Below the pieces are notes generated by a model. It did no database searches and was not told where the DNA came from. It saw only the letters and a program-made list of their open reading frames with translations. The translations under genes and the position numbers were made by a program. Positions 1-12,858 of a stretch of DNA of 64,000 nucleotides are shown piece after piece. Position 1 is the stretch's first letter; every line of letters begins with the position of its first letter. Source of the stretch: an uncultured Clostridia bacterium (GTDB taxonomy: Bacteria; Bacillota; Clostridia; Oscillospirales; CAG-272). Where the stretch lies: contig CANRMP010000013.1 of assembly GCA_947631765.1 (NCBI GenBank), positions 141-64,140 on the forward strand. The letters run 5' to 3'.

Positions 1-1
1 G

Positions 2-187
2 CTCCCCACACATACGGTAGTACGGAACTTTGAAGGACTGGAGAAGGAGTCTATTATTCTATCGGAGCAGATACGGACTGTTGACAAACAACGCCTGCGG
101 GAGTATGTAGGAACTCTCGGCGGGCGTTTTCTTATTGAAGTGAACACCGCATTGGCAATCAGTATCGGACTGCAAAAAAAGGATTAG
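2..187 (+). CDS. MazF/PemK-family type II toxin, C-terminal part (start lies left of the window)
   Basis: Frame-2 translation LPTHTVVRNFEGLEKESIILSEQIRTVDKQRLREYVGTLGGRFLIEVNTALAISIGLQKKD* has the conserved MazF/PemK C-terminal pattern (S-x-x-L-x-EQIRT-x-DK-x-RL). It is absent from the ORF track because no start lies in the window. Confidence 0.6.
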   Translation, partial: LPTHTVVRNFEGLEKESIILSEQIRTVDKQRLREYVGTLGGRFLIEVNTALAISIGLQKKD

Positions 188-231
188 CCCCCTCGTTATA
201 TGGGACAATCACAGGCTCATATACTTATTGA

Positions 232-459
232 GAACGAGGGAGGTGTTGGCTACTGAAGCATAGAGAATTTGTTTATGTAGGCGCTCCTGTTCCAGATTTG
301 GATGGGCAGGAATACGCAGCGTTCCTTTTGAACATTCAAAAGTCAATCCTCTTTTCTTTGGAACAGAGAAAACTATTGACCCCTTCACAGCGGGAACGCT
401 GTTTGGTTGCGCTTGAAAATCAATACAGTCAAAAAGAGAGGAATAAGCGCCAAGCATAG
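232..459 (+). other. Start-less open frame, either a small CDS or a gene remnant inside the mobile element
   Basis: Frame 1 is open from 232 to TAG 457-459 (..REFVYVGAPVPDLDGQEYAAFLLNIQKSILFSLEQRKLLTPSQRERCLVALENQYSQKERNKRQA*). There is no ATG and only an internal TTG. It ends inside a terminator hairpin. No family recognised. Confidence 0.2.
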
Positions 460-475
460 CCGCTTGGCGTTTTTA
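447..475 (+). terminator. Rho-independent terminator
   Basis: Stem GCGCCAAGC (447-455) pairs with GCTTGGCG(T) (462-470) and is followed by a T-run. Confidence 0.55.
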
Positions 476-582
476 CATATAGAGAAATGTGCAAATTTGA
501 AATTCGCACATTCGACAGAACCACCGCCCTTATTTACAATAGAAATAACGGCAGCAGAGGTTGCCGGGAAAGGAGCATTGGA

Positions 583-2271
583 ATGAACAAATACGAACTC
601 TTAAACCAAGAGCGTAAATTCGTTGATAAGAAAAAACGAGTTGCAGCTTATTGCCGAGTTTCAACCGATAACGAGGATCAAGCAAACTCTTTTGAAAGTC
701 AGCAGCGGTATTTCCGGCAATATATCGAGCGCAATCCCGATTGGGAGCTTTATGAGATATTTGCCGACGAGGGAATATCCGGCACGAACACCAAGAAGCG
801 CAAAGAGTTTAACCGCATGATTGCCTGCGCTAAAAACGGGGATTTTGATTTGATTATCACAAAAGAGATCTCCCGCTTTGCCAGAAACACGCTCGACAGC
901 ATTTACTATACCCGTGACTTGAAAAAGCATGGTGTAGGTGTTATCTTTATGAATGACAACATCAACACGATGGACGGCGACGCAGAGCTGCGCCTTGCCA
1001 TTATGTCCTCTATCGCACAGGAGGAAAGCCGAAAGACCTCGGAGCGTGTGAAGTGGGGGCAGAAACGCCAGATGGAACAAGGCGTCGTTTTCGGCAGGGA
1101 TATGCTCGGTTACGATGTCCGTGGCGGCAAGATGTATATCAATGAAGAAGGGGCAAAAATCGTCCGCCTTATCTTTCATAAGTTTGTTGTTGAGGGAAAA
1201 GGCACTCATGTTATCGCCCGTGAGCTTCGGGAGGAAGGCATTGAACCTATGCGGGTAAAGGAATGGCAGAACACGGTTATTCTCCGCATTATCCGCAACG
1301 AAAAATACTGCGGCGATCTGGTACAGAAAAAGACTTATACGCCGGACTTCCTATCCCATGAGAAAAAGTACAACCGTGGGCAGGAAGAATTCGTCATTAT
1401 TAAAGATCACCATGAGCCAATCATTTCCCGTGAGCTGTTTGATGAAGCCAATCGGATTTTAGACGAACGCTCTTTATCGCCGGAGGGGAAAGCGAAGCAC
1501 TCAAACCGCTATCCGTTCTCTGGAAAAATCAAATGCGGGTGCTGCGGCGCAAGCTATGTGGCAAGGTATAAGACCCGCAAGGACGGAAGCCGATATAAGG
1601 CATGGCGTTGTCTGGAAGCTGCTCGAAACGGCAGCCCGCATATAGATAAGGCGGGCAATCAAGTCGGTTGCACAGCCCCAAGTATCCGAAACGAGGACGC
1701 AACACATCTCATGTATCTCGTTACCAAAGACTTAAAATTCAACCGACAGAAAATCACGGATAACCTACTTTCCATTATCAAATCCATTATCGCTATGGAT
1801 ACCACAGGGTCGGATGTAGAAAAGCTGAAAGCGAAAATCAAAGCGATCGAGGAAAACCGAGCAAAGCTGATTGACCTCTATATGTCGAATGTCATAACCA
1901 AAGAGGAATTTGCAGACGCCAGAGCAAAGTACGACAGTGAAATTGCCGAGCTGCAATCGGTCATCGACAGCATTGATAAACAGCAGTCCATGATAAAGCA
2001 GCAGCAGGAGCTTATCAGAGAGATCAGCGATGCGATCAAAGAGATCGTCGGCGGCGTGGAATACGAAGATGAGTTTTACAAACGGATATTGGATAAGATG
2101 GTTGTGAATGACCGTGACAATATAGATGTGTACCTGCATTTACTTCCAATCAAGTGGAGCTATACGGTTGCAAAAGCGTCAAAAAAAGCGTTAGCCCCTA
2201 AAATGACGCATTTTAGGGGCTTCTCTACCGATATCGGTAAGCATTCCGGCAACCTTGCGGTCGGGCATTGA
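583..2271 (+). CDS. Large serine recombinase (resolvase catalytic domain, recombinase domain, zinc ribbon, coiled coil)
   Basis: The N-terminus KRVAAYCRVSTDNEDQANSFESQ carries the serine-recombinase nucleophile motif. A Cys-rich zinc ribbon (KCGCCGASY..WRC) and a long coiled-coil tail follow. Start moved from ORF-track 487 to ATG 583, which sits behind the RBS GGAAAGGAG. The 3' end reads across the junction into cotJC DNA. Confidence 0.9.
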   Translation: MNKYELLNQERKFVDKKKRVAAYCRVSTDNEDQANSFESQQRYFRQYIERNPDWELYEIFADEGISGTNTKKRKEFNRMIACAKNGDFDLIITKEISRFARNTLDSIYYTRDLKKHGVGVIFMNDNINTMDGDAELRLAIMSSIAQEESRKTSERVKWGQKRQMEQGVVFGRDMLGYDVRGGKMYINEEGAKIVRLIFHKFVVEGKGTHVIARELREEGIEPMRVKEWQNTVILRIIRNEKYCGDLVQKKTYTPDFLSHEKKYNRGQEEFVIIKDHHEPIISRELFDEANRILDERSLSPEGKAKHSNRYPFSGKIKCGCCGASYVARYKTRKDGSRYKAWRCLEAARNGSPHIDKAGNQVGCTAPSIRNEDATHLMYLVTKDLKFNRQKITDNLLSIIKSIIAMDTTGSDVEKLKAKIKAIEENRAKLIDLYMSNVITKEEFADARAKYDSEIAELQSVIDSIDKQQSMIKQQQELIREISDAIKEIVGGVEYEDEFYKRILDKMVVNDRDNIDVYLHLLPIKWSYTVAKASKKALAPKMTHFRGFSTDIGKHSGNLAVGH

Positions 2272-2412
2272 GAATCTCTGATTAAGATATCTCATTGACG
2301 CGCCGAGCTCCCCGTCCGGTCCGCCGAGCTGGCTGATTATGATTTTAGCCGCGCAGGGATTGGGATTTTTGATTTTTACAGGGTATTCAAGTTTTTTCTC
2401 GTAAGTCCACAT
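2191..2412 (-). pseudogene. cotJC: cotJC (manganese-catalase-like spore coat protein), 5' fragment only, interrupted by the element
   Basis: MWTYEKKLEYPVKIKNPNPCAAKIIISQLGGPDGELGASMRYLNQRFSMPDRKVAGMLTDIG follows the CotJC N-terminus up to the conserved LTDIG(TEE). After about residue 62 (about nt 2227) the sequence is unrelated (REAPKMRHFRG*). Full-length CotJC is about three times longer. Confidence 0.8.
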
Positions 2413-2666
2413 CAGATATTAGCCTCCAATTCCCACGGCCACGGCGTTTTGGTCCATTCCCAAGAGTCTTTATCAAGGGTGGAGTTTGCCGTCAGAGGAC
2501 CGTATTTTTCGGTATATTCCTCAACCGCCTTTTTGTACATGCAGTATATTTTCCGGCTGTATTCAAACGCCTCGTCGCTCTCGTATGCGTCAAGGTACAG
2601 CCCGTTATCGATAAGAGTGAAGCCAAGCTCCTGTATAGTTTTTAAAAGACTTTTTCTTTCGCTCAT
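2412..2666 (-). CDS. cotJB: Spore coat protein CotJB
   Basis: 84 aa with the CotJB pattern (LLKTIQELGFTLIDNGLYLD..., C-terminal PWPWE). Its stop overlaps the cotJC start, giving the cotJA-B-C operon order. Confidence 0.85.
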   Translation of the reverse strand: MSERKSLLKTIQELGFTLIDNGLYLDAYESDEAFEYSRKIYCMYKKAVEEYTEKYGPLTANSTLDKDSWEWTKTPWPWELEANI

Positions 2667-2968
2667 TTTCCCTCCCTATTTGAGCACGGGCAGAAGGGCT
2701 TGTATAGCTCTTCGAAAATCGTCCCTTTTTGAAGGGCAGCTGCCGGGTCAAATATATCCTTCCATTTTTGATAGGGAGCGTATACCATTGCAAGCACATC
2801 CTGAGGCGCTGTGTTGCTCCGGTTGCAGGTCGAGCTCTTGCGATGCTCATCCTCGGCGCTACTGTTGCGATACGCATTTGAAGCACCGGGATTTCTATTT
2901 CCGCTTTGCTGATTGCTTGCCCAGACCGGAATGTTTCTCACGCTCCTGCCGGTTCTTTGAAAATTCAT
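2663..2968 (-). CDS. cotJA: Spore coat-associated protein CotJA
   Basis: The C-terminal half LAMVYAPYQKWKDIFDPAAALQKGTIFEELYKPF matches the CotJA signature. It overlaps cotJB by 4 nt. Confidence 0.8.
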   Translation of the reverse strand: MNFQRTGRSVRNIPVWASNQQSGNRNPGASNAYRNSSAEDEHRKSSTCNRSNTAPQDVLAMVYAPYQKWKDIFDPAAALQKGTIFEELYKPFCPCSNREGK

Positions 2969-3134
2969 TATAAACCTCCGTTCCGCCCGAGGTCGGGCGG
3001 ATTGATTTGTTTTTCTTGAGAGATTTTTGGTCTCTGTTATATTTTATGAGTATCGCCGGATTATGTGAAAGCTGCATTGGGAAAATTCACGCAAAAAATC
3101 ACGTTTTCCGTCGCTTGACATCGCGGCGCGCCGA

Positions 3135-3883: not shown

Positions 3884-5380
3884 ATGACAAAACCGGTTAA
3901 TCTCTATCTCTTGTCACGAATAAACAATGAGGTCGCGTACCGCCGCGTGGAAAAGCACTCCTCAGGCAAAGAGGAGGAAAAAAGGACTCAAATTCATGAA
4001 ATCAACTCTTTAAGGGAGATAGTGGACGCGCTCCTTGATTACGGAATATCCATAAATACGCTTGACGGCTTTTTTCTCAGCTATCAAATCCCGCAAATAG
4101 GCAAGGAATTTGACCTCCTCAAATTCACACCCTCCCGCTGTCTTAACATTGAGCTTAAAAGCCGCGCCGTACCGGTCGAAGATATCTTGGATCAGCTGAG
4201 AAAGAACAGACACTACCTTTCGCATTTAGGAAAAGACACGAGATTTTTTACGGTTATAACAAATTCTCTGACCTCTTACAGGCTGACACAGGACAACAAT
4301 TTGCAAAAAGTCGACTTTTCCGAAGTTGCAGGCGCAGTGCTTGACTTTAGCGACAATTATCTAACGCAAATAGATAATATGTTCAGAGCCTCAGACTACT
4401 TGGTGTCTCCCTTGAATACGCCCGAAAAATTCATCAACGGCGAATATTTTTTGACCCAAGCGCAAGAACAAATAAAAAAAGAGGTGATAAGAGACATTCT
4501 CACCCTCGGGCACAGCGGTTTTTACAGTATTGTCGGCAAGCCCGGCACAGGTAAAACTCTGCTCATTTACGATATTGCAAAAGAGCTTTCAAAAAAAGAC
4601 AAAACGGCAATTATCCATTGCGGCAAGCTTTCCGACGGACAGCGAAAGCTTCGGACAAAAATCAAGAATTTTAACGTTATCGGCGCAAATACGCTCAAAA
4701 GCCGGCTGGAAATTGTCGATAACTATCGCTTTATTCTCGTCGATGAATCTCACAGGTTTTATCCGAGACAATTTGAAGATCTTTGCGGCAAGGTTATAAA
4801 TAACAGGCAAATATGCATTTTTTCCTCCGACCCTGAGCAGGTACTCTCAACCGCCGAGAAAAAGAACGCCATTTTCAGCAAAATATCGGCGCTTCCCTTG
4901 CTTGGAAAGTACGAGCTTTCGGAAAAAATCCGCACCAACAAAGAGCTTGCTTCATTTATAAACTCGGTTAGAAACCTAAATATAAAGCCGCGTGTTCCCA
5001 TGAGCTATAATAACGTTTCCCTTTCCTATGCAAACTCGGTCGATGAGGCAAAGAAAATAATAAAGTATTACAAAAATCAAAATTATGTATTTATAAATTA
5101 CTCAAAATCCAACTATAATTACAGCCCATATTCCGAATATGAGGAGGATTTTGATACGCACCACGTTATCGGACAGGAGTTTGACAACGTGCTTATGCTC
5201 CTTGATAAATCCTTTTATTATGATGAAAACAACATACTGCAAGGTGTTCCGCATCCGAATCCGGATTACCTGTACCCGAATTTGTTCTATCAAGGCATTA
5301 CGCGTGTTCGTGAAAAAATCGCCCTCGTGGTCGTCGACGCCCCGGAATTATTTGAAAAAATATCCTCAATTGTCGAATAG
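3884..5380 (+). CDS. DUF2075-type P-loop ATPase (helicase-like) with an N-terminal PD-(D/E)XK/NERD-like region
   Basis: Walker A GKPGTGKTLL, Walker B ILVDESHRF, and a C-terminal VIGQEFDNVLML..YQGITRVREK typical of DUF2075/UvrD_C-like ends. The N-terminal FDLLKF..LNIELKS resembles a nuclease core. RBS GGGAGG. Confidence 0.7.
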   Translation: MTKPVNLYLLSRINNEVAYRRVEKHSSGKEEEKRTQIHEINSLREIVDALLDYGISINTLDGFFLSYQIPQIGKEFDLLKFTPSRCLNIELKSRAVPVEDILDQLRKNRHYLSHLGKDTRFFTVITNSLTSYRLTQDNNLQKVDFSEVAGAVLDFSDNYLTQIDNMFRASDYLVSPLNTPEKFINGEYFLTQAQEQIKKEVIRDILTLGHSGFYSIVGKPGTGKTLLIYDIAKELSKKDKTAIIHCGKLSDGQRKLRTKIKNFNVIGANTLKSRLEIVDNYRFILVDESHRFYPRQFEDLCGKVINNRQICIFSSDPEQVLSTAEKKNAIFSKISALPLLGKYELSEKIRTNKELASFINSVRNLNIKPRVPMSYNNVSLSYANSVDEAKKIIKYYKNQNYVFINYSKSNYNYSPYSEYEEDFDTHHVIGQEFDNVLMLLDKSFYYDENNILQGVPHPNPDYLYPNLFYQGITRVREKIALVVVDAPELFEKISSIVE

Positions 5381-7697: not shown

Positions 7698-10502
7698 TTG
7701 AAACAATACGCTATTAAATTTCTTTCCGCACTGCTTGCTTGTACAATGCTTCTTGGCGCTGTGACCTCATTAATTTCCTGCTCGGATGACAATGATAAAG
7801 GCAAAAATCCGAGTCAGACTACCACCTCGGACGAGGGCGGCGAGAATATAGAAAATCCCGACAATACCACAGAGTACAAAACAGAAGAGGACCCCGCGCT
7901 TGAAATTACCGAGGTCATGATAGAAAATCAAATAGGCGTCACCGCCTCTGACGGCGAGCGCCACCCTTGGATAGAGCTGCACGCAAAAAGAGATGTTAAT
8001 CTTTCGGAGTATTCGCTTTTGTATTCTCAAAAGAATAAATACAACCTGCCCGATAAAGCCCTGAAAGCCGGCGAGTATTACCTTGTTTTCATGTATGAAG
8101 GCGGCTTTAATGTAGCTCCGGCAAGCTCGGCAAATCTCATGCTGACTCACGGGGAGTATCTCTGCCAAAGCATTGTATATTTCAACCCCAATGCAAACTG
8201 CTCCTATGTGGTGAGCGTCGGCAGTGAGACCACAAAACCCACCCCGGGCTATGAAAACGCGCTTGAAGCCGACAGGCTTTTTATCTCCGAGCTTATGTGC
8301 GACAATAACGTTTATCCGATAAACGGTGCCATATGCGACTGGATTGAGGTTTATAACGGAGGGGAAAGCGAAATAAAGCTCTCCGAATACTGGATTTCAG
8401 ACAAGCTTGACGATCCTTATTTGTCACAGCTTCCCGATATAGCTCTTGCCCCCGGAGGCTACTATGTGCTATGCGGCGACAAGGATTTTTCCTTCGGACT
8501 TTCAAGCGGCGGCGAAACGGTTTTTCTCACTCGCAGGGACGGCGTTACCTCCTCAATGATAGTCTATGAGGCATTTGACGAAAACTGCTCCTTTACGCGT
8601 GAGAACGAAATAACAAAATACCCTTCTCCCGGCTTTCCCAACGGCAAGGACGGTTATTATTCCTATATCAACAGCAGAACCGGGCTTGTAATAAACGAGG
8701 TTATCTCCTCCAACTCGAAATTCAAAAAGTACAGCGGAGATTATTACGACATTGTCGAAATATACAACGGAACAAATGCAAGCGTAGATCTCGGCGATTA
8801 TTATCTTTCTGACAAAGCCAAAAACCTGCAAAGATACAAGCTTCCGGACGTCACGCTCGGAGCGGGAAAATATCAGCTTGTATACTGCACCGGAAAGGGC
8901 GGAAAGGACCCGGACTTCGGTATAAGCAGTAAGGGGGAGAACCTACTGCTGACAAATTCCGAGGGGTATGTCTGCGACGCCATGCTTGTCCCCGAGCTGC
9001 TTCACAACATAAGCTACGGCAGAAGCGGCGGAAAATTGGTTTACTTTGAAAATCCTACGCTCGGCAGTGTAAACGGTACGGGCTACGAGGAAATATCGGC
9101 TCCCGCAGTTGCAAGCGTTGCAAGCGGCAAGTATCGCGGCGCGGTATCGGTAACTCTTTCGGGTGAAGGCGATATATATTACACCACCGACGGGACACTG
9201 CCGACAGTCGCTTCAAAGCGTTATCAAGGCGAGACAATAGTCTTTGACAAGACCGGAAATCTCCGCACGATATGCAAAAACGGCTCTTATATCACAAGCC
9301 GTGAGAGCGCTTACACCTACTATGTGGATATACCCGATTATTCGCTTCCTCTCGTCATGGTGGCTGTGGAGGAGAACGCGATGTTCGGAGAGAACGGCAC
9401 GTACACAAAATCCTCCAAAACCGAAATTCCCGGACACGTTTCATTCTATGAGGACGGAGTCGAAAAATTCTCCGTCGGCTGCGGAGTCAAGATTTTCGGC
9501 GGAACCTCAATCTACTATGCGAAAAAGAGCTTCCAGCTCAAATTCCGCGGCAAATACGGCGCCTCGAAGCTTGACTACAAGGTGTTCGACAATCTTGACA
9601 TCGACTCCTTTAATTCCTTGGTTCTGCGCGCCGGCGGTCAGGCTCAGTACCGCAGTATGATAAGCGATGAGGTGGGCACCTCCATTGCAAGTCTGAGCGG
9701 CAACATGCCCTCGCTTCTTGTTCAAAGCTACAAGCCCTGCGATTTGTATATAAACGACCGTTACATGGGCGTTTACTTCATAAGAGAAAAAATAAGCGAC
9801 GACTTTGTCGCCTCGCACCTTGGCGGCGACCCGAGCGAGACAACAATAATTAAGGACTTCTGGAACGGCAGTTACGCAGTTGCGGGTGTTGATGGCGCAG
9901 AGTGGAAGGAAATATGGTCGTTTGTTCAGAAAAAGGACCTTACAGTGGCTTCAAACTATGAATATTTAAAGTCGGTCATTGACTTTGACAGCCTTATCGA
10001 CTTTTATATCATGGAAATGTTTGTGGGCAACACCGACTCGGGCAACGTGAGACTGTGCAAAACAAGGTACGGGGACGGCAAATGGAGGTGGATACTCTTT
10101 GACCTTGACCTCTCCTTCGAGATACAAAAAAGCGGAGCAAACACCTACCTCGGCTCTCTAAGCGCAAAAAAACGCCCCTTCAACCCCGTCATTTACAACC
10201 TGCTCAAAAACAAGGAGTTTTCGCAATACTTTGAAGATAGGCTTATGATGCACGTTGGCTCGACTCTTTCAAACGAAAACGTCAGGGCGCGCATTGACGC
10301 GGTGTATAACGAAATCGCCCCCGACATGCTTTATGAAATAGACCGCTGGAAGGACGTTCCCGACAGCGCGGGAATGGCAAGACTGCGCTCGGTTTCCTCA
10401 TGGCAGAACAAGGTTGAAGCGCTTTACCGCCGCGCCAGCGCCGAATATCTCGAGCAATACGTTTCCGAGGTCAAGGCGGCGCTTGCCAAAATAAAAAAAT
10501 AA
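7698..10502 (+). CDS. Secreted lipoprotein with three lamin-tail (LTD) repeats, a chitobiase-C-like module and a CotH kinase-family domain
   Basis: Signal peptide with lipobox LISC. LTD-like repeats (LEITEVM..WIELH, LFISELM..DWIEVYNGG, LVINEVI..DIVEIYNG..LGDYYLSDK). GDIYYTTDGTLPT. CotH pattern FGGTSIYYAKKSFQLKFRGKYG..LVLRAGGQ..YINDRYMGVYFIREKI. TTG start behind RBS AGGGGG. Confidence 0.75.
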   Translation: MKQYAIKFLSALLACTMLLGAVTSLISCSDDNDKGKNPSQTTTSDEGGENIENPDNTTEYKTEEDPALEITEVMIENQIGVTASDGERHPWIELHAKRDVNLSEYSLLYSQKNKYNLPDKALKAGEYYLVFMYEGGFNVAPASSANLMLTHGEYLCQSIVYFNPNANCSYVVSVGSETTKPTPGYENALEADRLFISELMCDNNVYPINGAICDWIEVYNGGESEIKLSEYWISDKLDDPYLSQLPDIALAPGGYYVLCGDKDFSFGLSSGGETVFLTRRDGVTSSMIVYEAFDENCSFTRENEITKYPSPGFPNGKDGYYSYINSRTGLVINEVISSNSKFKKYSGDYYDIVEIYNGTNASVDLGDYYLSDKAKNLQRYKLPDVTLGAGKYQLVYCTGKGGKDPDFGISSKGENLLLTNSEGYVCDAMLVPELLHNISYGRSGGKLVYFENPTLGSVNGTGYEEISAPAVASVASGKYRGAVSVTLSGEGDIYYTTDGTLPTVASKRYQGETIVFDKTGNLRTICKNGSYITSRESAYTYYVDIPDYSLPLVMVAVEENAMFGENGTYTKSSKTEIPGHVSFYEDGVEKFSVGCGVKIFGGTSIYYAKKSFQLKFRGKYGASKLDYKVFDNLDIDSFNSLVLRAGGQAQYRSMISDEVGTSIASLSGNMPSLLVQSYKPCDLYINDRYMGVYFIREKISDDFVASHLGGDPSETTIIKDFWNGSYAVAGVDGAEWKEIWSFVQKKDLTVASNYEYLKSVIDFDSLIDFYIMEMFVGNTDSGNVRLCKTRYGDGKWRWILFDLDLSFEIQKSGANTYLGSLSAKKRPFNPVIYNLLKNKEFSQYFEDRLMMHVGSTLSNENVRARIDAVYNEIAPDMLYEIDRWKDVPDSAGMARLRSVSSWQNKVEALYRRASAEYLEQYVSEVKAALAKIKK

Positions 10503-10788: not shown

Positions 10789-12858
10789 ATGAAAAGATTG
10801 CATGTAAAAAATATTATACCGATTTTGCTTGCACTTTCCCTGCTTTTTTCCTCCTTTGCGGCGTGCAAGAATCAAACCTCGACGAGTTTGGGCTCTGACC
10901 CGACCCTCTCTTCTCAACCAGAAGTTACAACAACAAAGCCGGATGAAGTATCGGAGAACACGACTCATTCGCAAACAGATGAGGAAAATCCGCCTGTTGT
11001 CACCCCCGAGCCCGTGGTTGTCGAAAATATTGAGTCTGTCCCCTTGGCGGAAAATAACGAGCTTGTCGAGCTGCGTTTTAACAATGAAAAATATTACACT
11101 GGCGACACCGTAATTCAGAGCGGGAATATTTACAATAATCAGCTTCTGCTCATAAACTGTACTTATGTTATGAATGAGGAGGAGACCGACGATTTCGGCG
11201 ACCCGATATGGGATACTTATTGGTCTATTGACCTTTTTGACCTTGAAAAGGGCGCGTATCGCGGCAGGTGCGACCTTGGAAAAAAACAGCTGAGCGACGC
11301 GGGCTTTTTAGAGGACGGAACAATTTACTTTACGGCGTTTGACGACAACACCGGCTACGATAATCTTGAGATATACGTTTTTATCTCCTTTCCCGAACAG
11401 ACAAGCAAGCTTTTGAGCATGGATTCTTCCTGCTTTTGCGGAATAAGCAATGACGGCAGAGTGTGGACACTTGACTTTGAAGCCCGACTTTTGCGCGGAC
11501 TTACTCCCTTTGACAACCGCCCGGATTTGCAGTTTGACGCAGATGAGGACTGGTCAAGCGCAACTTATACCGGAACGGGCAACGGATGCGCGTATTTTCT
11601 CATTTATGACGATGCATGGAACTCCTCTTTTATCGGAATAAATCTTTCAGACGGTACCTTGACCGATTATCCGCATCTTCGAAACGTAAATTGGGAATTT
11701 GAAAATATCCTCCCGCTTTATTCGAATGATTCTTGGATGATAGTATTGCCAAACAATCCGTATACCATCAACACCTTCCCGAAAAACAACGATTTCGGCT
11801 TTATCAGCGCGGCGGCGGGTACCTTCTTTGCGGAATATCAATACCTTGATGAGGTCGGCGTTTTCACGGTATATGACGCCAAAAACGGCTCAATGCTCGG
11901 CAGTATTGCCGAAACGGAGGGGATTTTCGGCACAACGATTCTTTGCATGGACGAGAGCGGAAGACTCTTCTTTACCTGCTATGGCAACGAGGAAGGAAAC
12001 GGAGTGCCGCGCATTGTTGTATGGCAATACGACACAAAAGAGCCGCAGCCCTCAAATAGCTTTCGAAAAATCGACGTCAGGGGCAGCAGCAGCGAGGCAA
12101 GGCGCCTTGAAAACGAAATATATATGACCTACGGCATACACGTATTTTTCGATGAAATATCACTTTCCGACCTTGTTTGGGACTACACCTGCGAGTATAT
12201 AGACGACGAGCTACAAATAGTAAACGCGCTTAAAGATTTGAAAGAGGCGCTTGCAAAATATCCGCAGGGCTTCTTTGAAGAGCTTTGCACGAGCAGCTTC
12301 AGGGGTGTTGAAATATATCTTTGCGGCAGCTTCACGCCTACCGGAGAAACCGGAATAAGCAGTGCGGCAGCGCTTACAAGTACCAAAAACGGCGCTATTA
12401 TAATGGCGTTCAATATTAACTATATGTATATGGTCGAGCAGAACCTCTCTCATGAGCTTATGCACGCCATGGAGCATAGAATAGAGGAGTATTGCGAAGA
12501 AAACGGGATTGCCTATCAGGATGAATGGAATGCGCTCAACCCCTCAAAATTCAAGTATTACGACTCCTACCATGACAAAAACGGAAACGAAATAAGCGAC
12601 ACCACCTACACCCTTTGGGAAGGAAGCCGCAAAGCTTGGTTTGTCGACCCGTACTCAAAGTCGTACGCAACGGAGGACCGTGCAAGAGTGTTTGAAAATC
12701 TCTTTGTGGCAAACGGCAACGCCTTTGAAAGCTCGCACCTTATGGCAAAAGCCGAGTATCTTTGCGGTCTTATAAGAACAGTCTTTAAATCGGTACAAAA
12801 CGCCGAAAGCGTATCCTGGGAGCGACTGCTTGAAAACAGAGTTCAAAAAGCGGCGTGA
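10789..12858 (+). CDS. Lipoprotein of unknown function with a C-terminal zincin (HExxH) metalloprotease-like region
   Basis: Signal peptide with lipobox-like FAAC. A Thr/Pro-rich linker. HELMHAMEH motif near residue 545. RBS GAGGTG. Confidence 0.6.
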   Translation: MKRLHVKNIIPILLALSLLFSSFAACKNQTSTSLGSDPTLSSQPEVTTTKPDEVSENTTHSQTDEENPPVVTPEPVVVENIESVPLAENNELVELRFNNEKYYTGDTVIQSGNIYNNQLLLINCTYVMNEEETDDFGDPIWDTYWSIDLFDLEKGAYRGRCDLGKKQLSDAGFLEDGTIYFTAFDDNTGYDNLEIYVFISFPEQTSKLLSMDSSCFCGISNDGRVWTLDFEARLLRGLTPFDNRPDLQFDADEDWSSATYTGTGNGCAYFLIYDDAWNSSFIGINLSDGTLTDYPHLRNVNWEFENILPLYSNDSWMIVLPNNPYTINTFPKNNDFGFISAAAGTFFAEYQYLDEVGVFTVYDAKNGSMLGSIAETEGIFGTTILCMDESGRLFFTCYGNEEGNGVPRIVVWQYDTKEPQPSNSFRKIDVRGSSSEARRLENEIYMTYGIHVFFDEISLSDLVWDYTCEYIDDELQIVNALKDLKEALAKYPQGFFEELCTSSFRGVEIYLCGSFTPTGETGISSAAALTSTKNGAIIMAFNINYMYMVEQNLSHELMHAMEHRIEEYCEENGIAYQDEWNALNPSKFKYYDSYHDKNGNEISDTTYTLWEGSRKAWFVDPYSKSYATEDRARVFENLFVANGNAFESSHLMAKAEYLCGLIRTVFKSVQNAESVSWERLLENRVQKAA

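What the first reader, a model, noticed from the sequence alone, without database searches (positions are those of the whole stretch)
1..2412. Spore-coat gene cotJC is split by an element ending in a large serine recombinase (skin-like intervening element?)
Seen: the cotJA-cotJB-cotJC operon is intact up to CotJC residue about 62 (..GMLTDIG). At about nt 2215-2227 the frame leaves CotJC homology, and the adjacent DNA encodes a large serine recombinase oriented toward the junction, then a MazF toxin fragment. Established: in spore formers several sporulation genes are interrupted by prophage-like elements that a terminal serine recombinase excises in the mother cell, restoring the gene (sigK by skin via SpoIVCA, spsM by SPbeta via SprA). 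cotJ is a mother-cell operon. Inference: this may be a developmentally excised intervening element in cotJC. Otherwise the strain lacks functional CotJC.
Basis: partly seen in the sequence, partly recalled or inferred. Interest (0 to 1): 0.7.

Follow-up and report, generated by a model that had tools for sequence, protein, structure and literature searches.

The report
Mobile element splitting spore-coat gene cotJC
The spore-coat gene cotJC of this gut Clostridia bacterium really is cut in two by a mobile element that a large serine recombinase inserted at one GG dinucleotide, but the element belongs to a widespread family resembling conjugative transposons, not to skin-like prophages, and nothing yet shows that it is cut out during sporulation.

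Summary
cotJA and cotJB are intact. cotJC stops matching after Gly62, at a 2-bp crossover core (window 2228-2229; GG on the cotJC strand). A 562-aa large serine recombinase (LSR) gene and a PemK toxin gene lie on the element side.

Strains of the same species in metagenomes carry an uninterrupted 231-aa cotJC. Other contigs carry the missing 3' part joined to the element's far end. Joining the two halves in silico gives the intact CotJC exactly.

Of 80 close recombinase relatives from gut metagenomes, 73 sit in cotJC. A few sit in other genes. Three contigs carry the unintegrated attP form.

Where both ends of a relative lie on one contig, the element is 3-9 kb and has no phage genes. Larger relatives carry genes typical of Tn916/Tn5397-like conjugative transposons. 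The nearest solved structure is a conjugative-transposon recombinase.

The recombinase promoter looks like a housekeeping promoter, not a sigma-E or sigma-K one. Excision timed to sporulation is therefore possible but unsupported.

cotJC was already listed as an integration target, so this is a new member of a known kind.

One oddity: the recombinase reading frame runs across attP, so integration swaps the recombinase's C-terminal tail.

The parts
2..187 (+). 3' half of a pemK/mazF toxin gene, cut by the window edge. It is a complete 119-aa gene in conspecific contigs. It belongs to the element's conserved pemK-recombinase end module.
   Evidence: Translation. tblastn residues 59-119 at 97% identity. 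PF02452 on L010/L012. Rfam pemK RNA RF02913 lies upstream in L010/L012.
298..459 (+). Small conserved ORF between pemK and the recombinase. It is listed as 53 aa from a TTG start; conservation starts near nt 235. Function unknown; candidate antitoxin or accessory factor.
   Evidence: ORF list. Conserved in relatives L146, L160 and L203. No Pfam or PHROG match.
448..475 (+). G+C-rich hairpin followed by a T run (terminator-like), closing the pemK/small-ORF unit.
   Evidence: Read directly from the sequence. Conserved block in the 59-sequence alignment. The hairpin is also listed.
512..540 (+). Sigma-A/sigma-70-like promoter of the recombinase gene: TCGACA, 17 nt, TACAAT.
   Evidence: Promoter scan, 10 of 12 matches. 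Both hexamers are conserved in the alignment of 59 distinct upstream regions.
583..2271 (+). Large serine recombinase gene in its integrated form, 562 aa. The catalytic YCRVST motif is near residue 27. The last 13-14 codons are antisense cotJC.
   Evidence: Pfam Resolvase, Recombinase and Zn_ribbon_recom. PHROG integrase. PDB 3g13 conjugative-transposon recombinase, E 1e-45. Identical protein on two further contigs.
2193..2221 (-). Hairpin with a 13-bp stem followed by a T-rich tail on the cotJ strand, right after the stop of the truncated cotJC ORF. It probably terminates cotJ transcripts at the element boundary. It overlaps the attP-derived arm.
   Evidence: Terminator scan.
2198..2227 (.). 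Element-side arm of the attachment site (attP half-site). It is the inverted repeat of the arm at the element's other end.
   Evidence: Reconstructed attP: GCTTCTCTG-GG-TAGAGAAGC on the cotJC strand. Real attP contigs of relatives match the reconstruction.
2228..2229 (.). Two-base crossover core: CC on the + strand, GG in codon Gly62 of cotJC. These are the only bases shared by attB, attL and attR.
   Evidence: Junction comparison of the window, L001 and L093/L094. Same core in 83 related loci.
2191..2412 (-). Truncated cotJC ORF: 62 CotJC codons, then 11 element-encoded codons, then a stop.
   Evidence: Pfam Mn_catalase 1-64. 98% identical to residues 1-64 of the intact allele.
2412..2666 (-). 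cotJB, intact.
   Evidence: Pfam CotJB, E 3e-23. Identical protein on 23 contigs read.
2663..2968 (-). cotJA, intact.
   Evidence: Pfam CotJA, E 3e-16.
3041..3069 (-). Promoter-like site upstream of cotJA. The scan reports TTCACA-17-TAAAAT. The same bases also read AC-N16-CATAAAATA, which fits the sigma-K consensus as I recall it; that reading is inference only.
   Evidence: Promoter scan. Direct reading of the sequence.

Best explanation
The window begins inside an integrative mobile element. The element's large serine recombinase (LSR) inserted it into cotJC by a cut-and-swap at the GG of codon Gly62.

The element belongs to a large family in gut Clostridia. It is not a prophage. The family has a conserved end module made of the pemK RNA motif, pemK, a small ORF and the recombinase. 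Larger relatives look like Tn916/Tn5397-type conjugative transposons. Small relatives (3-9 kb) look like mobilizable or decayed derivatives.

The recombinase prefers the cotJC site, whose right half-site resembles the element's own arms. It can also use other sites, much as TndX of Tn5397 prefers Fic-coding DNA.

The insertion is reversible. Excision at the same GG restores cotJC exactly and forms a circle that carries attP.

Shown: the insertion, its exact ends, the family and its target preference, and the existence of empty sites and of attP forms.

Inferred:
- The recombinase is made from a housekeeping-type promoter.
- Excision serves transfer and is not timed by sporulation.
- Carrier cells lack full-length CotJC unless the element leaves.
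For: Insertion and ends:
- Six conspecific contigs have an intact 231-aa cotJC and flanks 99.2-99.9% identical to the window. Homology to them ends at window nt 2228.
- The other junction is on L093/L094, followed by the same downstream genes.
- GG is the only overlap between the junctions, and the element's arms are inverted repeats.
- In-silico excision gives CotJC identical to the intact allele.

Family and target preference:
- Among 80 relatives (82-89% identity), 70 abut an antisense cotJC 5' fragment, 2 lie in cotJC in the other orientation, 1 is at cotJC codon 13/14, 6 are in other genes and 1 is in the attP form.
- Recombinases 99% identical to that of attP contig L153 read into many unrelated genes.

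Unintegrated form: real attP contigs are L153, L204 and L205.

Gene content:
- Elements with both ends on one contig are 3125-8934 bp and carry ParA, ParB, Cys-rich KTR, a sigma-70 region 4 protein, PemK and AbiEi/AbiEii.
- Larger relatives carry lysozyme-like/CHAP, Xre, two-component and ABC cargo.

Affinities:
- Best PDB match is 3g13, a putative conjugative transposon recombinase (E 1e-45), against 6e-13 for SPbeta SprA.
- No sequenced phage has a recombinase above 49% identity.

Regulation and precedent:
- The TCGACA-17-TATAAT promoter is conserved.
- TndX and TnpX integrate and excise without accessory factors, and TndX targets a conserved coding motif (PMC2475636 and PMC4430133).
Against: - The middle of this strain's own element was never seen. 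Every contig breaks 0.5-0.8 kb inside either end, so its size and content are inferred from relatives.
- No relaxase, coupling protein or other type IV secretion gene was seen in the DNA I held. The conjugative-transposon label therefore rests on accessory genes and on the PDB match.
The promoter therefore does not exclude developmental excision.
- Very small elements (3.1 and 3.9 kb) keep an intact recombinase gene and intact arms. That is what host selection for excision would produce.
- 73 of 80 relatives sit in a mother-cell gene.
Confidence: 0.55

Rival explanations
1. The first reader's idea, with gin as the better model than skin. The element is a developmentally regulated intervening element. 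In the mother cell the recombinase, helped by a sporulation-controlled factor, cuts the element out and rebuilds cotJC in time for coat assembly. The germ-line copy stays in the forespore.
For: - cotJ is a mother-cell operon in B. subtilis (established knowledge).
- Excision would restore the gene exactly.
- Empty-site and attP forms exist.
- 73 of 80 relatives are in cotJC.
- Minimal 3-4 kb elements still keep an intact recombinase gene and intact arms.
- Small conserved ORFs of 53, 59 and 68 aa with no known family could be an RDF.
- The non-phage gin element in gerE, with GirC and the 6.5-kDa GirX, is a proven precedent (PMC5595907).
- cotJC was already listed among sporulation genes used for integration.
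Against: - No sigma-E-like or sigma-K-like promoter was found at the recombinase; the conserved promoter is sigma-A-like.
- Clade members insert into histidine kinase, glmS-like, relaxase and resolvase genes.
- Intact-allele contigs differ from the window by about 0.8% in the flanks, so they are other strains and not excision products of this strain.
- The catalytic domain is far closer to a conjugative-transposon recombinase than to SprA.
- No expression or excision data exist.
Confidence: 0.25
2. Dead-end knock-out. The element is fixed in this strain and no longer excises. The strain simply lacks CotJC, tolerated because Mn-catalase coat proteins are dispensable or redundant.
For: - Mutating the CotJC-like proteins of C. 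difficile reduced catalase activity but caused no significant defect in spore coat formation (cited in PMC11222575).
- A strong hairpin right after the truncated ORF would end cotJ transcripts cleanly.
Against: - The recombinase ORF is intact, has all three domains, and is identical on independent contigs.
- Both arms and the core are intact.
- Elements 99.6% identical occur both integrated and in the attP form.
Confidence: 0.15
3. A skin-like or SPbeta-like prophage, active or defective, of tens of kilobases.
For: - IMG/VR files several contigs that carry close relatives as viral.
- A real prophage with its own LSR sits in cotJC near codon 30 in some relatives.
Against: - In those viral contigs the phage genes belong to the second, neighbouring element, not to the pemK-recombinase element.
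- All five relatives with both ends on one contig are under 9 kb and have no phage genes.
- No sequenced phage has a recombinase above 49% identity.
Confidence: 0.04

Closest known systems
Tn5397 (TndX) and Tn4451 (TnpX): clostridial conjugative or mobilizable transposons moved by a large serine recombinase
   Same: - The LSR sits at the element's end.
- Crossover is at a 2-bp core.
- There is a strong preference for one conserved protein-coding target (Fic-coding DNA for TndX), with other sites also used.
- Accessory genes are Tn916-like (cell-wall hydrolase, Xre, sigma-like protein).
- The nearest solved structure is a conjugative-transposon recombinase.
   Different: - The core is GG/CC, not GA.
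- The preferred target is the sporulation gene cotJC.
- No conjugation genes were seen in the DNA I held.
- Whether this recombinase works in both directions without a helper, as TndX and TnpX do, is untested.
gin element in gerE of Bacillus cereus (GirC recombinase and GirX RDF; PMC5595907)
   Same: - A non-phage element splits a mother-cell sporulation gene.
- An LSR acts at a short core within inverted-repeat arms.
- Some relatives here carry three tandem recombinase genes (L100-L103), as gin does.
   Different: - gin excision in sporulation was shown experimentally and needs GirX. Here neither the timing nor an RDF is known.
- The host class, the target gene and the recombinase lineage all differ.
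skin (SpoIVCA) in sigK and SPbeta (SprA/SprB) in spsM of Bacillus subtilis; skin of C. difficile
   Same: A sporulation gene is interrupted, an LSR lies next to one junction, and excision restores the reading frame.
   Different: - Those are prophages or prophage remnants of 14-134 kb (sizes as I recall them) with proven mother-cell excision.
- This family is 3-9 kb or conjugative-transposon-like, and also inserts in non-sporulation genes.
- SprA is only a distant relative (E 6e-13).
Earlier notes of cotJC as an integration site (Abe et al. 2013, as cited in bioRxiv 10.1101/2021.11.22.469490; Laceyella sacchari in bioRxiv 10.1101/2022.02.25.481979)
   Same: The same gene is reported as interrupted by phage, transposon or skin-like elements.
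   Different: - Those reports concern Bacilli and are lists only.
- The exact site, core, recombinase clade, element type and spread in gut Clostridia are described here. I could not read Abe 2013 itself.
SSV1-type archaeal integrases, whose gene contains attP and is split on integration (PMC8371274)
   Same: The attachment site lies inside the recombinase reading frame, so integration changes the recombinase gene.
   Different: - Those are tyrosine recombinases that are split into two large parts.
- Here only the last 68-73 codons beyond the folded LSR domains are swapped.
- Some clade members have their own stop before the arm.

Membership tests
Large serine recombinase (serine integrase/transposase) | N-terminal resolvase catalytic domain, then a recombinase domain, then a zinc ribbon with a coiled-coil insert | tested here: met
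   Pfam PF00239, PF07508 and PF13408 in that order. The YCRVST motif with the presumed catalytic Ser is near residue 27 (read).
Large serine recombinase (serine integrase/transposase) | Recombination at a 2-bp core flanked by imperfect inverted repeats in attP | tested here: met
   GG is the only overlap of attB, attL and attR. The attP arms are GCTTCTCTG / TAGAGAAGC. Real attP contigs match the reconstruction. Relatives with the core flipped to GG on the recombinase strand sit in the opposite orientation.
Sporulation-gene intervening element (skin, SPbeta, vfbin, gin, yin) | The element lies inside the coding sequence of a sporulation gene and precise excision restores the frame | tested here: met
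   Insertion within codon Gly62 of cotJC. The in-silico composite equals the intact allele.
Sporulation-gene intervening element (skin, SPbeta, vfbin, gin, yin) | Excision is switched on during sporulation, in the mother cell | not testable with these tools
   Needs cultures or reads from sporulating cells. The only indirect hint is a sigma-A-like, not sigma-E/K-like, recombinase promoter.
Sporulation-gene intervening element (skin, SPbeta, vfbin, gin, yin) | A recombination directionality factor encoded in the element | tested here: inconclusive
   Three small conserved ORFs (53, 59 and 68 aa) have no Pfam or PHROG match. The AlphaFold model of the 68-aa ORF has mean pLDDT 43. No binding or activity test was possible.
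Prophage-like element (skin-like) | Phage structural, lysis or replication genes, or their remnants | tested here: not met
   None in the five relatives with both ends on one contig or in 10 kb of the larger relatives. This strain's own interior was not available.
Tn916/Tn5397-type conjugative transposon | Conjugation module: relaxase, coupling protein, VirB4-like ATPase | tested here: inconclusive
   Only accessory genes of that type were seen within 10 kb of the recombinase: lysozyme-like/CHAP hydrolase, Xre, a sigma-70 region 4 protein and resistance-type cargo. Sortase and pilin genes lie at the far end of L095. The core transfer genes were out of reach.
Tn916/Tn5397-type conjugative transposon | The recombinase alone carries out both integration and excision (TndX/TnpX type) | not testable with these tools
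   Needs a recombination assay. The precedent is cited in PMC2475636.
PemK/MazF toxin module | PemK fold, and the pemK RNA motif upstream | tested here: met
   PF02452 on the full gene in L010/L012. Rfam RF02913 at 49.7 bits against a gathering score of 34.8. No upstream antitoxin gene was seen.

The most novel reading that the evidence does not exclude
The recombinase gene spans attP. Integration replaces its last 68-73 codons with whatever lies beyond the junction, and excision rebuilds a 617-622-aa form fused to a conserved small domain and followed by a 59-aa gene. The integrated and excised states would then make different recombinase isoforms, and this could act as a built-in directionality or anti-reintegration switch, a natural counterpart of engineered integrase-RDF fusions.

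For this reading:
- The frame is open up to the core in all 83 loci.
- It continues in frame in all six reconstructed attP sites and in real attP contigs.
- In the window's lineage two separate one-base shifts keep the fusion in frame while the small ORF's own ATG is lost.

Against this reading:
- A few clade members carry their own stop before the arm.
- The 68-aa segment is called as a stand-alone gene in hundreds of contigs.
- It does not fold confidently on its own.
Probability: 0.12. Interest if true: 0.7.

Novelty: new member of a known kind. Interest (0 to 1): 0.45.

Why it matters
It adds a well-defined case to the list of sporulation genes interrupted by recombinase-bearing elements. 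The site, the 2-bp core, both junctions, the empty site and the attP form are all defined. The case lies in uncultured gut Clostridia, not in Bacilli.

It shows that cotJC is a hot spot. A whole recombinase clade targets codon 62 in either orientation. A second, phage-borne recombinase targets a site near codon 30, sometimes in the same genome.

It also warns against reading every such split as a skin-like developmental switch. This family looks and behaves like a conjugative or mobilizable transposon with a preferred site.

If excision did prove to be tied to sporulation, it would link horizontal transfer to spore formation in gut anaerobes. The recombinase, with its short and well-defined att sites, is also a candidate genome-engineering tool for Clostridia.

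Tried and rejected
- **Source genome.** One scan of genome contigs with the intact CotJC gave at best 77% identity. The species is not there in a recognisable form, so the DNA left of the window could not be read.
- **Walking into the element.** Every conspecific contig ends within 0.8 kb left of the window start or 0.57 kb inside the far end.
- **Bridging test.** I tested whether the two known ends overlap, which would mean a very small element. They do not.
- **attP searches.** An exact attP pattern found nothing in IMG/VR or in the loci held at that time. attP forms turned up later through protein hits.
- **Phage relatives.** Nothing above 49% identity.
- **Small ORFs.** Pfam and PHROGs gave no match. 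The AlphaFold model of the 68-aa ORF was too poor for a fold search.
- **Rejected idea: the target is the most conserved stretch of cotJC.** The 40-nt window around the core ranks only 145th of 545 (1.27 bits against a gene mean of 1.18), although the GG itself is in 77 of 79 genes.
- **Rejected idea: a long 622-aa recombinase is common in databases.** None was among the top 120 hits.
- **No second copy.** The window holds no second cotJC copy and no 3' fragment.
Full report
**1. What is in the window**

On the minus strand lie cotJA (2663-2968), cotJB (2412-2666) and an ORF of 73 codons (2191-2412). The first 62-64 residues of that ORF match the start of Mn-catalase/CotJC (Pfam).

On the plus strand, pointing at that ORF, is a 562-aa protein (583-2271) with Resolvase, Recombinase and Zn_ribbon_recom domains. 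This is a large serine recombinase (LSR).

Upstream of it lie a small ORF (298-459) and, from nt 2, the C-terminal half of a PemK/MazF toxin. The window holds no other cotJC-like sequence.

**2. It is an insertion, and the ends are exact**

I looked up the window's CotJB protein in public assemblies. Of the ten contigs shown, six carry an uninterrupted 231-aa cotJC and four carry the split.

The intact contigs align with the window at 99.2% over 10.4 kb, and the alignment stops at nt 2228. The split contigs are 99.9% identical right through the junction.

A search with the C-terminal part of the intact CotJC found P0001, a 194-aa protein. It consists of 25 foreign residues followed by CotJC from Gly62 to the end. 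Its two contigs (L093, L094) continue into the same downstream genes as the intact locus: an 88-aa ORF, an AAA_14 protein, a GH43 glycosidase and the ATP synthase operon.

Side by side, the sites read:
- attB: ...CCGATATC-GG-AACCGAGGAG...
- attL (window): ...CCGATATC-GG-TAGAGAAGCCCC...
- attR: ...GGTGCTTCTCTG-GG-AACCGAGGAG...

The only shared bases are GG (window 2228-2229, read as CC on the plus strand). The reconstructed attP, GCTTCTCTG-GG-TAGAGAAGC, is an inverted repeat around that core. This is the signature of LSR recombination.

Joining the window's 5' part to the 3' part of L093 at the core gives a 696-nt ORF. Its product is identical to the intact CotJC.

**3. A large family with the same habit**

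Eighty recombinase relatives (82-89% identity) came from metagenome contigs, many of them labelled human gut. They break down as follows:
- 70 are followed by an antisense cotJC 5' fragment ending at residues 64-70, usually with cotJB and cotJA beyond it and pemK upstream.
- 2 lie in cotJC in the opposite orientation. In these the core reads GG on the recombinase strand, as the LSR polarity rule predicts.
- 1 is at cotJC codon 13/14.
- 6 are in other genes, among them a glmS-like, a relaxase and a resolvase gene.
- 1 is unintegrated (the attP form).

Several other species have 3' cotJC fragments that start exactly at GTEEL.

Recombinases 99% identical to that of the attP contig L153 read into many unrelated genes, often where the flank encodes P-TEE. 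The clade therefore has a preferred site, not an exclusive one.

The attB region is only moderately conserved within cotJC. The GG itself is nearly invariant.

**4. All four site forms exist**

Empty sites and both junctions are described in section 2.

For attP, contig L153 carries pemK, the recombinase, an intact attP and the far-end ORF. Up to the core it is 99.6% identical to L135, an element integrated in cotJC. L204 and L205, from two other data sets, also carry the predicted attP sequence. L204 holds only the last 110 nt of the recombinase gene.

So relatives of this element do occur off the chromosome or between sites.

**5. What kind of element**

The interior of this strain's own element was out of reach. 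Every contig breaks within 0.8 kb of either end. The likely cause is that the end modules are shared at 75-88% identity among many genomes in the same communities.

Five relatives have both junctions on one contig. They measure 3125, 3922, 6822, 8597 and 8934 bp. L160 has both ends homologous to this strain's ends. It carries ParA, ParB, a Cys-rich KTR protein, a sigma-70 region 4 protein, PemK, the small ORF and the recombinase. L146 carries AbiEi/AbiEii. None has phage genes.

Larger relatives have, within 10 kb of the recombinase, a lysozyme-like/CHAP hydrolase, an Xre regulator, and two-component and ABC transporter cargo. This is the layout of the accessory end of Tn916/Tn5397-type elements (my knowledge of those elements). 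The far end of one relative carries sortase and pilin genes.

The best solved-structure match is 3g13, a 'putative conjugative transposon recombinase', at E 1e-45. SPbeta SprA scores 6e-13. No sequenced phage encodes a relative above 49% identity.

The IMG/VR 'viral' label on some contigs comes from a second, separate element next door.

**6. Regulation**

An alignment of 59 distinct upstream regions shows three conserved features: a terminator hairpin, then TCGACA-17-TATAAT (TACAAT in the window, 512-540), then a ribosome-binding site. That is a housekeeping-type promoter. No sigma-E-like or sigma-K-like motif is conserved there.

This does not settle the timing.

Three small conserved ORFs are RDF candidates: 53 aa next to the recombinase, and 68 aa and 59 aa at the far end. 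None matches a known family. TndX and TnpX need no helper at all.

On the cotJ strand, a 13-bp-stem hairpin sits right after the stop of the truncated cotJC.

**7. An oddity: the recombinase frame crosses attP**

In all 83 loci where the core can be placed, the recombinase ORF has no stop before it.

In six reconstructed attP sites, and in the real attP contig L153, the frame runs on for 68-73 codons to a total of 617 or 622 aa. It ends in a conserved segment that gene callers otherwise list as a 68-aa protein.

In the window's lineage the recombinase reads the arm in a different frame. The far-end ORF carries a one-base deletion that puts its ATG out of frame but keeps it in frame with the recombinase across attP. 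Both independent contigs agree on this.

Three results argue against a functional fusion:
- A few clade members have their own stop just after KWSYTVAKA.KKR.
- No 622-aa form is among the top database hits.
- The 68-aa segment does not fold confidently on its own.

I record this as unresolved.

**8. Comparison and verdict**

cotJC has been named as an integration target before: by Abe et al. 2013, as cited in bioRxiv 10.1101/2021.11.22.469490, and for Laceyella sacchari in bioRxiv 10.1101/2022.02.25.481979. Non-phage intervening elements are also known, namely gin.

In anatomy the closest systems are Tn5397 (TndX) and Tn4451 (TnpX). In possible function the closest is gin.

The skin-like reading is only partly supported. 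The element is best described as a new member of a known kind. Developmental excision remains an open and testable question.

Noticed in passing
L132, L135, L176, L184, L201 (metagenome loci) and L096, L098 (IMG/VR loci), just beyond the cotJC fragment: In these relatives only cotJC residues of about 30-64 remain between two converging recombinase genes. The second recombinase is only about 25% identical to the first. In L135 it heads a phage-like region with a metallo-protease, repressors and an Erf protein. So a prophage targets cotJC near codon 30, and some genomes have cotJC cut into three pieces.
   Followed up: partly
L154 and L155 around 11615-11660; proteins P0247, P0258, P0265 and others: Relatives whose core reads GG on the recombinase strand sit in cotJC in the opposite orientation. 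Their recombinase ORF then runs in frame into the cotJC 3' part, giving fusion ORFs of 692-705 aa with a Mn_catalase domain. These are common; P0265 alone is on 65 contigs.
   Followed up: partly
L010 3458-3558 and L012 18-118 (conspecific DNA just left of window nt 1): The Rfam pemK RNA motif (RF02913) lies upstream of pemK and no antitoxin gene precedes the toxin gene. A small conserved ORF follows pemK instead (window 298-459).
   Followed up: no
L129, L150, L161, L162, L173, L202; proteins P0241-P0256: Near-identical recombinases sit in unrelated genes (glmS-like, relaxase, resolvase, histidine kinase, thiamine pyrophosphokinase). The flank after the core often encodes TEE, so the half-site ACNGARGAR seems to be what the recombinase recognises.
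   Followed up: partly
L125 3048-3142 and 8662-9179: This 8.6-kb element holds a second copy of the far-end arm plus the small ORF just upstream of the recombinase. It looks like a composite or a tandem accretion of two elements.
   Followed up: no
L100-L103 (IMG/VR loci): Here the close recombinase relative is the last of three tandem serine recombinase genes at the end of the contig. In L101-L103 these contigs are 46-51 kb proviruses predicted from isolate genomes. The layout recalls girA-girB-girC of gin.
   Followed up: no
window 3884-5380 and 7698-10502: Next to the cotJ operon lie a 498-aa Schlafen-group-3-like helicase/P-loop protein and a 918-934-aa protein with CotH, LTD and CHB_HEX_C domains. 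The latter is a second spore-coat-type gene in the neighbourhood.
   Followed up: no
intact cotJC of L001 10255-10950, last ~40 codons: CotJC of this species ends in an Asn/Gly/Cys-rich low-complexity tail (..NNNCPQGGNIGNNNTGDNNNNNGNNCGCRG) that the approximately 200-aa relatives lack.
   Followed up: no
window 1 and contig ends of L005, L006, L009-L012, L093, L094: Every assembly of this species breaks within 0.5-0.8 kb inside either end of the element, and the window itself starts there. This fits end modules shared among many co-resident genomes.
   Followed up: partly
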